A DNA stretch of 64,000 bases, from assembly GCF_026210795.1 (NCBI RefSeq), contig NC_089435.1:1116001-1180000 (forward strand), given 5' to 3'. Below, piece by piece: positions 48,701 to 50,797 of this stretch. The translations under genes and the position numbers were made by a program. The notes below the pieces were generated by a model. The model saw only the letters and a program-made list of their open reading frames with translations. It searched no databases and was not told the origin of the DNA. This DNA comes from Rhizophagus irregularis. Its lineage: Eukaryota. How positions within the stretch are numbered: position 1 is the first letter of the stretch; each line of letters opens with the position of its first letter.

Positions 48701-50797
48701 ATGGGTATAACACCGTCAAGAGAAAAATTTATAGCCTTAGAAGGATACGCCCAAAAAAGCGTCGAAGAGCGAAATACAATACTAACAAACGCAGGAATGG
48801 AAATAACTCAAACGGACAAAGACTTAGCAGAATTTTTAGGGGCAGAAGACGTAACCTTAGGTTGCTTTATTAGAGGTATTATTACGATATGCATAGACGA
48901 ACACAACAACATACGCAACCAAGAGTTCACAAGATATATGGAGGAATACAAAAACGTCAACAACGAAATGCTTGAACAAAAACATATAGAAATGAACGAA
49001 CAGATAAGAATGATGGAAGAAAATTGGAAGCTAAAAGAAGAATATTATTTCAAGAACTCGACAATGAAAAAACACCAAATAGTAACGGAATTAGGTTCGG
49101 TCGACCAAGAAGACAAAGAAAAATTGGATAAATACAACAAATGTAAAGACATGATAGAAAAAGATTTAGAAGCGAGCGATGACTCCAACGAAGGCCAACT
49201 GTGGGAAACGAACAGCGACACAACCAGTGACACTTCAGATTTCAACCAAAGTATGACAAGGAGATATAATATTTACAACAAAAGCTCACACCTATCAACA
49301 AACGACACACCCCATAACACCAATAGAAACTCACAAATGCAGGAGACGATCAAAAATGGAAACTCTCAATATTCAAGGCACCAATCAATTACGATGGCGT
49401 TTACCGCCGATCACGACATGGGAGCAAATTCCAGAATAAGTAAAGAATCAATGCACAAACCCAAAACAGCCGACGATCTGAAATATTTCGCGGGACTCCT
49501 GACCACACAAATCAGGGACGCACAAACAGACCAATCGATAATCGAATATATAAATAACAACAAACTACTAGAATATCACATGAACACATTAGGAAGAATG
49601 ATGAAAAACGGTAATGAATATACCTACGTAGGTTTTTTCACAGAAACAGCCAAAAATAATTTTTTGGAGGACGGAAGAGTAAAGGGCACTCTAGGGAATT
49701 TCAGAGACTTAGAATGGCTCAACAAACTATATAAAACAATCACGATATCGGTAACAGGAATCGATGAAAAAATGGACATAAACGAAGTAATAGAAGCTGT
49801 AGAAAGGAAGTTAGGTAAAATGCAAAAAATATCACAACAAGGAAAACAATACGGGAAAATCAATCTCAAACTAGTTATGGAAATAAGATGTACAGAAGAG
49901 GAACTGATGAACACATGGGGAATTCTCTTGAAGAACAGAATGATAAAAATAGAACCGATTAACTATAAAAACCACGTGATCAGACAAAGAGGGAAAATAA
50001 GTGCAAGCGTGCTAGACATACCAAATGAAATTGATGAACTCGAAGTGGCCAAAATACTAAGACAAACAGGTGCAAGATATTGGTACAAATCGAATAACAA
50101 AAACAAAAGATCATACCAAATGAATGTTTATTTTAACAACGAAGAAGAAAGAAAAGCAGCGATAGGAAGGAAAATAAAAATTAAAGACCAAATTTTTACT
50201 TGGTTTTTTCGGGCAGAATCAGGAGGAAGACAACAAAGCAATTTTCGCCAACAAGGAAGTAATTTTCGCCAACAAGGAAGATTTAACAGTAGATACCAAG
50301 GACAAAATTACAACAGAAGTTTCGATAACAGAGCAAGATGTTATATCTGCAAGAAAAATAATCACAATGCAAACAAATGCTACTTCAATAATGACAACAA
50401 TAAAAACACGAACGAACACAGAAGTCATAGAAATGAAAATCAAAACAGACCGTTCAGACAAGAAAGCGGCAGATATAATAACGACGGAAAATTCAATTTC
50501 GAATCACAATACGAGGACAACAACGATAACAACAGATACAATGGCCCCAACTATAGAGGAAGAAACACAAACCCAAGAAGACGATTCAATGATAATCATA
50601 TTGGAAAAATTGAAAGACTTGAATATAGAGGATACCAACAAGGAAAATATTACCAACAATATTACGACCATGATAACAACGGACGTAATACAGGAAAACA
50701 TACTGGATACAATAACAACAGTAGCAGAAGCTACGACAGAGATTGGAACGAAGGAAGTAGATTCAATGATAGGCGTCGAATGGCTAGACGCTATTGA
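48701..50797 (+). CDS. LINE ORF1 (Gag-like nucleic-acid-binding protein), 698 aa
   Basis: Coiled-coil-like N-terminus, RRM-like middle, CX2CX4HX4C knuckle (CYICKKNNHNANKC), N/R/Y/G-rich tail. Confidence 0.92.
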   Translation: MGITPSREKFIALEGYAQKSVEERNTILTNAGMEITQTDKDLAEFLGAEDVTLGCFIRGIITICIDEHNNIRNQEFTRYMEEYKNVNNEMLEQKHIEMNEQIRMMEENWKLKEEYYFKNSTMKKHQIVTELGSVDQEDKEKLDKYNKCKDMIEKDLEASDDSNEGQLWETNSDTTSDTSDFNQSMTRRYNIYNKSSHLSTNDTPHNTNRNSQMQETIKNGNSQYSRHQSITMAFTADHDMGANSRISKESMHKPKTADDLKYFAGLLTTQIRDAQTDQSIIEYINNNKLLEYHMNTLGRMMKNGNEYTYVGFFTETAKNNFLEDGRVKGTLGNFRDLEWLNKLYKTITISVTGIDEKMDINEVIEAVERKLGKMQKISQQGKQYGKINLKLVMEIRCTEEELMNTWGILLKNRMIKIEPINYKNHVIRQRGKISASVLDIPNEIDELEVAKILRQTGARYWYKSNNKNKRSYQMNVYFNNEEERKAAIGRKIKIKDQIFTWFFRAESGGRQQSNFRQQGSNFRQQGRFNSRYQGQNYNRSFDNRARCYICKKNNHNANKCYFNNDNNKNTNEHRSHRNENQNRPFRQESGRYNNDGKFNFESQYEDNNDNNRYNGPNYRGRNTNPRRRFNDNHIGKIERLEYRGYQQGKYYQQYYDHDNNGRNTGKHTGYNNNSSRSYDRDWNEGSRFNDRRRMARRY

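What the first reader, a model, noticed from the sequence alone, without database searches (positions are those of the whole stretch)
50175..50797. Candidate programmed +1 ribosomal frameshift (UUU_CGG) fusing ORF1 to ORF2 in a fungal LINE
Seen: the ORF2 frame is +1 relative to ORF1 and stays open from 50178 (after TAA 50175-50177) to 56462, so about 620 nt are stop-free in both frames. About 30 nt into that overlap, ORF1 reads TGG TTT TTT CGG (50201-50212, W-F-F-R). Arg in this element is mostly AGA, so CGG is unusual. A 21-nt duplication (50240-50280) preserves both frames. Known: UUU_CGN is the +1 shift motif of influenza A PA-X and amalgaviruses (P-site Phe tRNA slips UUU to UUC), whereas L1-type ORF2 is usually made by reinitiation. 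Inference: slippage would join ORF1 aa 1-503 to about 2083 aa of ORF2 (about 2590 aa), replacing the zinc knuckle and N/R/Y tail with a T-rich linker plus EN-RT. I do not know of this mechanism in a LINE.
Basis: partly seen in the sequence, partly recalled or inferred. Interest (0 to 1): 0.88.

Follow-up and report, generated by a model that had tools for sequence, protein, structure and literature searches.

The report
Flu-type ribosome slip in fungal LINEs
A jumping gene (LINE) of a mycorrhizal-type fungus, and very distant relatives of it, keep the UUU-CG signal known from influenza PA-X where their two genes overlap, so a few ribosomes likely skip one base there and make the copying enzyme as a fusion to the first protein, a signal not found reported for LINEs in the papers searched.

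Summary
Observation confirmed. Window 48628-56671 is a full-length LINE. ORF2's frame is +1 and overlaps ORF1 by 620 nt. TTT_CGN occurs in frame three times at the start of the overlap (50207, 50243, 50264), not once.

No homologue DNA was obtained, so I decoded codons from database gene models that read the +1 frame. The first Phe-Arg of the ORF1 tail reads TTT_CGN in three families only 19-51% identical to this ORF1 (CCC_TTT_CGN in each). Two closer families fit less securely. Control Phe-Arg pairs: 2 of 8. A PA-X-type +1 frameshift giving a 2586-aa ORF1-ORF2 fusion is likely (0.68) but untested.

Against: the open overlap is mostly a by-product of ORF1's Ile/Leu/Val/Met-poor tail (about 2.4 stops expected). 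An ORF2 AUG sits 29 nt before the ORF1 stop, and most families have one nearby, so termination-reinitiation stays a live rival. Six of 15 ORF1 tails lack an early Phe-Arg.

Frameshifts have been proposed for other LINEs (-1 in TRE5-A, +1 in Paramecium), without this motif in what I read. The scan earlier noted -1 sites in LINEs and UUU_CG +1 sites in phages, not this.

The parts
48612..48627 (+). left target-site duplication (16 bp)
   Evidence: identical to 56672-56687
48628..48700 (+). 5' UTR, 73 nt
   Evidence: between the TSD and the ORF1 ATG
48701..50797 (+). ORF1, 698 aa: helical/coiled-coil N-terminus, three RRM-like domains (about aa 262-503), zinc knuckle near aa 548-562, N/R/Y/Q/G-rich disordered tail
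   Evidence: pLDDT about 73-89 over the RRMs, under 50 for 507-546 and 563-698; top Foldseek hits are multi-RRM proteins, E 2.5e-7; knuckle read from the sequence, no Pfam hit
50175..50177 (+). last +1-frame stop (TAA); the overlap begins after it
50207..50212 (+). candidate +1 shift site 1, TTT_CGG (ORF1 F503-R504), at the end of the last predicted RRM strand
   Evidence: same position decodes as TTT_CGA in family D
50243..50248 (+). candidate +1 shift site 2, TTT_CGC, in the first 21-nt unit
   Evidence: close relatives decode as TTT_CGT
50264..50269 (+). candidate +1 shift site 3, TTT_CGC, in the second 21-nt unit
50178..50797 (+). ORF1/ORF2 overlap, 620 nt, stop-free in frames 0 and +1; 29 stops in the third frame
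50766..50768 (+). ORF2-frame AUG 29 nt before the ORF1 stop (start codon of the reinitiation rival)
50178..56462 (+). ORF2 frame, 2094 codons: T/I/E-rich then E/K-rich linker, APE endonuclease (from about 50970), reverse transcriptase, C-terminal Cys/His motif at 55830
   Evidence: Pfam Exo_endo_phos aa 275-475 and RVT_1 aa 905-1154; best PDB match human L1 ORF2p, E 2.6e-27
56463..56671 (+). 3' UTR ending in a 21-nt poly(A)
56672..56687 (+). right target-site duplication

Best explanation
This intact fungal LINE likely makes its endonuclease/reverse transcriptase by a PA-X-type +1 ribosomal frameshift at in-frame UUU_CGN sites at the start of the ORF1/ORF2 overlap, which would give an ORF1-ORF2 fusion of 2586 aa. 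Shown: the frames, the three sites, and their place just after the last predicted RRM strand. Inferred from homologue proteins: the same codon pair in distant families. Inferred from PA-X: P-site tRNA-Phe re-pairs from UUU to UUC while a CGN codon sits in the A site, at a low rate (about 1% for PA-X). Most ribosomes would make the full 698-aa ORF1p. The rare shifted ones would keep the coiled coil and three RRMs, lose the zinc knuckle and N/R/Y tail, and continue through a linker of about 250 aa into EN-RT. All three sites give the same total length; which one dominates is untested.
For: (a) Codon decoding from +1-frame gene-model pieces aligned to ORF1-frame sisters. Family D (51% identical): TTT_CGA then CCC_TTT_CGT (P0095; P0096 TTT_CGA; P0016 second site). 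Family G (26%): CCC_TTT_CGA (P0049). Family J (19%): CCC_TTT_CGT (P0111, P0112); I had marked this Phe-Arg before seeing the piece. Weaker: family E (TTT_CAG, then TTT_[C/T]GG) and family F (piece IFV, no ORF1 partner). (b) The sites sit at different offsets from the RRM-end Trp (W+2, +6, +10, +62). (c) Tail-start Phe-Arg sites use CGN 6 of 6, other decodable Arg 13 of 46 (p=0.0013, sites not independent). By family, 6 of 6 against 2 of 8 hand-tallied control Phe-Arg pairs, p=0.009; without the window 5 of 5, p=0.016; D, G and J alone p=0.06, or 0.005 against a background of 0.17 per pair. (d) After W[FL]F, 13 of 20 distinct sequences have R and 6 have Q, W or C, single changes from CGN; none has K/G/S/T/I; 1 ends there and was dropped. 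Other Arg-majority columns give 10 K against 5 Q/W (test column removed by hand). (e) Colinear stop-free +1 pieces run through the overlap in B (183 of 183 codons compatible), D, E, G and J. (f) The first ORF2 ATG after the ORF1 stop (51012) lies inside the first endonuclease motif, so plain downstream AUG reinitiation cannot give an intact EN. [quoted passage not shown]
Against: No homologue DNA was obtained. All outside codons are decoded from ab initio gene models paired with a different copy, and such models show only copies whose +1 frame is open. The open overlap is largely compositional. W-F-F is the last predicted RRM strand, so the Phe residues have a structural reason to be kept. An ORF2 Met near the ORF1 end occurs in most families. 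Six of 15 ORF1 tails lack Phe-Arg within W+10: J (W+62), P0056 (W+40), P0036 (W+69), P0057 (W+78), P0062 (Phe-Trp at W+9) and P0051 (none). The first site is undecoded in families B, C and H. Family E has Gln at the first site. One distal Phe-Arg (P0059) and one in ORF2 (53670) are also TTT_CGA. Two family-G +1 pieces (P0049, P0055) end about 90 codons after the site, before the ORF1 end. In PA-X, CGU to CGG halves shifting, and site 1 here is CGG. No protein, ribosome or reporter data exist.
Confidence: 0.68

Rival explanations
1. ORF2 is made separately by termination-reinitiation: ribosomes end ORF1 at TGA 50795 and restart at AUG 50766, giving an ORF2p of about 1900 aa. The long overlap would be the +1 shadow of a low-complexity ORF1 tail and the TTT_CGN sites incidental.
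For: Met 7 codons before the D-A-I anchor in 6 of 7 A/B pieces listed, equivalent in C, at -2 in E, -16 in F, -8 in 2 of 3 D pieces, +9 in J. DNA at 50732-50793 is about 90% alike in contigs of other subfamilies (6 differences in 62 nt). ORF1 ends in RRY/HRY/GRH in many homologues. SART1 reinitiates, and TURBS-type reinitiation works up to about 30 nt between stop and start. Zorro3, a fungal L1-like element, needs its ORF2 ATG.
Against: It does not explain TTT_CGN at the first tail Phe-Arg in D, G and J. The Met is lost in P0004 and P0095 and its offset varies by family. ATGs arise often in this frame as shadows of Asn-Asp/Glu (7 in 206 codons). The AUG/UGA hairpin is not significant (z -1.3 to -1.9; one longer window gave z -2.8).
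Confidence: 0.2
2. A spliced RNA joins an upstream part to the ORF2 frame, using the T-run plus CAG (50204-50216) as a 3' splice site.
For: The sequence reads T6-CGGGCAG and family E has T6-CAG; one gene model (P0021) enters the +1 frame just after this AG.
Against: Decoded sites in D, J and F have no AG right behind the motif. Gene-model junctions differ from copy to copy. No joints in 4 of 4 contig sets laid, one contig running unbroken over 50033-50872 (RNA status of the runs is a guess, so this is weak).
Confidence: 0.05
3. ORF2 starts by non-AUG or internal initiation near the start of the overlap, and the Phe kept in the +1 frame is a protein constraint.
For: Mammalian L1 ORF2 is considered AUG-independent. 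The decoded motif is equivalent to a Phe in the ORF2 frame.
Against: It does not predict an ORF1-frame Arg specifically; the neighbouring +1 residues vary (G, A, V, D, E).
Confidence: 0.05
4. Polymerase slippage on the T6 run makes a minority of transcripts one base short, fusing the frames.
For: The run is unstable: a 7-T variant occurs in one contig and is implied in P0004; gene model P0016 reads ORF1 to HPF and then the +1 frame with no residue lost.
Against: Families D, G and J have only three T at the site. A 7-T run leads to the closed third frame, not ORF2.
Confidence: 0.02

Closest known systems
Influenza A PA-X +1 frameshift, UCC_UUU_CGU (Firth 2012, PMC3498833; passages read)
   Same: UUU_CGN core in the zero frame near the 5' end of a +1 overlap; no 3' structure found here (z -0.3), and none is evident for PA-X (PMC5009743).
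   Different: The upstream codon is UUU/AAU here and CCC in families D, G and J, not UCC. Three sites in 60 nt. The product would be an essential polymerase fusion in a nuclear retroelement. PA-X is proven by mass spectrometry; this is not.
Amalgaviridae ORF1+2 fusion, including the yeast virus ZbV-Z (Nibert 2016, PMC5052127; passages read)
   Same: Coiled-coil ORF1, long +1 overlap (287-968 nt; here 620), UUU_CGN with all four CGN codons used, polymerase made as a fusion. Also a comparative prediction.
   Different: dsRNA viruses with an RdRp; here an APE-type LINE with EN-RT, TSD and poly(A).
Dictyostelium TRE5-A / TRE3-A (PMC5911963; figure-legend passage read)
   Same: APE-type non-LTR elements whose ORF2 is stated to need a frameshift.
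   Different: -1 direction; no UUU_CGN in the passage seen; the primary papers were not read.
Paramecium non-LTR Groups 1-2 (PMC5405496; passages and two supplement rows seen)
   Same: [quoted passage not shown]
   Different: Overlap is 11 nt in the two rows seen; no shift motif named in what I saw; ciliate clade.
SART1 and mammalian L1 reinitiation (PMC10275272, PMC5009743; passages read)
   Same: Two-ORF LINEs that need low-level ORF2.
   Different: ORF2p is a separate protein made after ORF1 termination; no 620-nt overlap.
Ty1/Ty3 Gag-Pol +1 frameshift (PMC5911963)
   Same: +1 shift fusing a structural protein to Pol in a fungal retrotransposon.
   Different: LTR elements with other shift heptamers (recalled motifs; none found in this overlap).

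Membership tests
PA-X-like +1 frameshift sites | UUU_CGN in the zero frame | tested here: met
   50207, 50243, 50264
PA-X-like +1 frameshift sites | site near the 5' end of a +1 overlap that is open to the functional domain | tested here: met
   30, 66 and 87 nt after the last +1 stop; no stop up to 56462
PA-X-like +1 frameshift sites | motif conserved at codon level in relatives | tested here: met
   decoded from proteins in D, G, J (firm) and E, F (weaker); undecoded in B, C, H; no early Phe-Arg in 6 of 15 tails; no homologue DNA
PA-X-like +1 frameshift sites | stimulatory UCC codon before UUU | tested here: not met
   TTT or AAT here; CCC in D, G, J; CCC lowers but does not abolish PA-X shifting
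PA-X-like +1 frameshift sites | measured shifting lost on UUC_AGA; transframe peptide | not testable with these tools
   needs a reporter or mass spectrometry
APE-type two-ORF LINE | APE endonuclease then RT in ORF2; RNA-binding ORF1; TSD; poly(A) | tested here: met
L1 clade | RT groups with L1-clade elements in a tree | not tested
   best PDB match is human L1 ORF2p, but only L1 and R2 proteins appeared there; no tree was built
Termination-reinitiation LINE (SART1 type) | ORF2 AUG overlapping or close to the ORF1 stop | tested here: inconclusive
   AUG 29 nt upstream, at the edge of the range reported for TURBS; offset varies between families
Termination-reinitiation LINE (SART1 type) | RNA structure near the stop | tested here: inconclusive
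   z -2.8 in 1 of 4 windows near the stop; 0.0, -1.3 and -1.9 in the others
-1 frameshift (TRE5-A type) | ORF2 in the -1 frame with an X_XXY_YYZ heptamer | tested here: not met
   ORF2 is +1; no such heptamer in the overlap

The most novel reading that the evidence does not exclude
A whole, old lineage of Glomeromycotina LINEs expresses EN-RT as an ORF1-ORF2 fusion through the influenza/amalgavirus UUU_CGN +1 signal. The fusion swaps ORF1's zinc knuckle and low-complexity tail for a linker encoded in the overlapping frame, so the enzyme would be built into the ORF1 particle through its own coiled coil and RRMs: a Gag-Pol logic in a LINE, with the signal often present twice or more.
Probability: 0.55. 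Interest if true: 0.88.

Novelty: new variant of a known kind. Interest (0 to 1): 0.76.

Why it matters
How LINEs make their scarce ORF2 protein is unresolved even for human L1 (PMC5009743). Here a definite six-base signal, an explicit rival AUG and three junction peptides make the question directly testable in a fungal LINE. If true, it extends the PA-X-type +1 shift from RNA viruses to nuclear retroelements; Firth 2012 left open whether similar motifs serve cellular gene expression. It would also give a LINE a Gag-Pol-like fusion. It would explain why the public gene models of these elements join ORF1 to ORF2 at junctions that differ from copy to copy.

Tried and rejected
Homologue DNA. No whole genome is held for the window. 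Scans for related loci found none in metagenome, viral or prokaryote collections. A reverse-transcriptase pattern gave 0 viral matches. An endonuclease pattern gave 1 viral and 4 metagenome matches, of which one (L003) is an unrelated single-ORF element with 24% RT identity. So variation across copies at DNA level remains open.

Sequencing runs. 20 of 24 listed runs hold the stretch; no RNA holder is listed. Four runs were laid as contigs: no joints, and no diverged subfamily covered the shift sites.

Dropped arguments. The 21-nt duplication (frame-neutral). CpG depletion as a reason for surprise: CpG observed/expected is about 1.1-1.4 in the element. 'QPFH' in R. clarus P0034, because it and P0066 read different frames there. 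A 3' stimulatory structure (z -0.3). The AUG/UGA hairpin.

Decoding. 23 gene models were tried. P0005, P0012, P0013, P0059, P0017 and P0102 aligned poorly (scores 27-54) and were left out of the counts; P0013 and P0059 were read by hand, without a partner. ESM Atlas gave only hits under 0.9.

Literature. Ten full-text searches listed no paper on a UUU_CGN shift in a LINE or on these Glomeromycotina elements; most hits were seen only as listings. Kojima 2005 is not held. Older proposals of frameshifting for silkworm R1Bm/TRAS1 are recalled only. Subscription papers, Repbase entries and bioRxiv supplements were not visible and could bear on novelty.

Full report
What is there. Window 48628-56671 is an intact LINE: a 16-bp target-site duplication, a 73-nt 5' UTR, ORF1 (48701-50797, 698 aa), an ORF2 frame open from 50178 to 56462, a 3' UTR and 21 A. 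ORF2 has APE endonuclease and RT domains; its best solved match is human L1 ORF2p. An AlphaFold model of ORF1 (mean pLDDT 60) shows N-terminal helices, three alpha/beta domains that match multi-RRM proteins, and a disordered tail from about residue 507; W501-F-F is the last strand. Named homologues come from Rhizophagus irregularis, R. diaphanus, R. clarus and Glomus cerebriforme.

The observation. In the rest of the element TTT is 44 of 68 Phe codons and CGN 12 of 132 Arg codons.

The overlap alone proves little. A +1 stop needs an Ile, Leu, Val or Met codon in ORF1, and the tail has 5 in 195 residues, against about 25% in the RRMs. With the protein fixed, 2.4-2.5 stops are expected and P(none) is 0.02-0.06. 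The T/I-rich ORF2 linker is the shadow of an N/Y/D-rich tail. The ORF1 tail is itself under selection: 14.5 stops would be expected in its frame.

Comparative test. No homologue DNA could be fetched. Public gene models of these elements often read through the overlap in the +1 frame, and a +1 translation fixes the second and third base of each ORF1 codon and often the first. I aligned 23 such models to ORF1-frame sisters and later two more. Family D (51% identical over the 190 aa before the Trp) reads GYFDTPFVG against WLFRHPFRG, that is TTT_CGA and CCC_TTT_CGT. Family G (26%) reads GPFE against RPFR, CCC_TTT_CGA. Family J (19%) reads SPFV against QPFR, CCC_TTT_CGT, at W+62; I had noted that Phe-Arg before the piece turned up. 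Close relatives give TTT_CGG and TTT_CGT. Family E has TTT_CAG and then TTT_[C/T]GG, and family F has a piece compatible with Asn-Phe-Arg but no partner; both are weaker.

Counts. Tail-start Phe-Arg sites use CGN in 6 of 6 cases, other decodable Arg in 13 of 46 (p=0.0013; three of the six are the window's own). By family, 6 of 6 against 2 of 8 hand-tallied control pairs (four outside the overlap; four distal in the tail) gives p=0.009. Without the window it is 0.016; for D, G and J alone 0.06, or 0.005 against a background of 0.17 per pair. Where the codon cannot be decoded, the residue after W[FL]F is Arg in 13 of 20 distinct sequences and Gln, Trp or Cys in 6, all one change from CGN; one protein ends there. 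Other Arg-majority columns change mostly to Lys (10, against 5 Gln/Trp, with the test column removed by hand). These counts share ancestry and are not independent trials. A Phe-Arg lies within W+10 in 9 of 15 tails, where shuffles give 0.03-0.13 each.

Results against. Six of 15 tails have no early Phe-Arg and one has none at all. The Phe pair ends a predicted strand. Gene models show only open frames. Two family-G pieces stop early. One distal pair (P0059) and one ORF2 pair are also TTT_CGA. An ORF2 AUG lies 29 nt before the ORF1 stop; it is kept in families A, B and C, other families have a Met 2 to 21 codons before the anchor or, in J, 9 after it, and it is lost in P0004. The DNA there is about 90% alike in other subfamilies. 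Reinitiation over such a distance is known for viral RNAs, and SART1 reinitiates. Plain downstream reinitiation at an AUG is excluded here, since the next ATG lies inside the first endonuclease motif. Both routes could operate.

Mechanism. By analogy with PA-X (0.74-1.3% shifting, lost on UUC_AGA, halved by CGG), tRNA-Phe would slip from UUU to UUC with CGN in the A site. The product would be ORF1 1-503 (or 515, or 522) plus the ORF2 frame, 2586 aa in each case. No 3' structure is evident. Polymerase slippage does not fit families with only three T, and splicing does not fit those without an AG. The frames and sites are shown; conservation is inferred from proteins; shifting, its rate and the fusion's role are inferred from known systems.

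Known cases. UUU_CGN with a 287-968-nt +1 overlap is the amalgavirus arrangement (PMC5052127, passages). For LINEs, a review legend states a -1 shift for TRE5-A/TRE3-A (PMC5911963); +1 shifting or reinitiation is suggested for Paramecium elements with 11-nt overlaps (PMC5405496, passages and two supplement rows); HeT-A gag is said to need a shift, and L1 ORF2 an unusual initiation (PMC5009743, passages). Zorro3 needs its ORF2 ATG (PMC1965478, passages). Passages of PMC5006619 and PMC4700185 added nothing on LINE shifts. Ten searches listed no report of UUU_CGN in a LINE; the library lacks most subscription papers. The scan's own index has no look-alike sequence; it holds -1 candidates in vertebrate LINEs and UUU_CG +1 candidates in phages and an archaeal provirus.

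Verdict. The feature is real. It works like a PA-X/amalgavirus site on every sequence criterion except the UCC codon, and membership awaits a measured shift. Confidence 0.68 for +1 frameshifting, 0.20 for reinitiation alone. A new variant of a known kind; interest 0.76.

Noticed in passing
window 50204-50209: A 7-T variant of the T6 run occurs in one contig of run X20 (depth 2.2, beside a 6-T contig at 2.8) and is implied in gene model P0004. It leads into the closed third frame.
   Followed up: partly
P0016 (homologue gene model): It reads ORF1 up to WLFRHPF and continues in the +1 frame with no residue lost, i.e. the predicted shift product. It may be a copy or assembly with a one-base deletion at the site.
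   Followed up: partly
window 50732-50800: The ORF1 end is unusually conserved: about 90% DNA identity in other subfamilies, a C-terminal RRY/HRY in distant ORF1s, and D-[AV]-[IT]-[DE] in the +1 frame as far as family J. Unexplained: ORF1 motif, ORF2 motif or RNA signal.
   Followed up: partly
window 48200-48375 and 56704-57267: The same short repeat family flanks the LINE on both sides. The right copy is interrupted by a palindromic, MITE-like element of about 175 bp that occurs twice.
   Followed up: no
window 4625-6130 (+): Tc1/mariner-like transposase (weak HTH hits plus DDE_3) split by an in-frame stop at 5147-5149.
   Followed up: no
window 11230-14801 (-): A frame with 19 Sel1 repeats followed by an overlapping protein-kinase frame.
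   Followed up: no
window 24632-26140 (-): BACK (weak) plus TLDc domain frame.
   Followed up: no
window 6576-8872 (-): Two overlapping long frames (509 and 315 aa) with no Pfam match at E 0.1.
   Followed up: no
window about 54900-55450 (ORF2): A stretch between RT and the C-terminal Cys/His motif resembles a degenerate RNase H by recall only; no Pfam hit.
   Followed up: no
L003 87-3134 (-): An unrelated single-ORF EN-RT element in a metagenome contig, RTE-like by recall.
   Followed up: no
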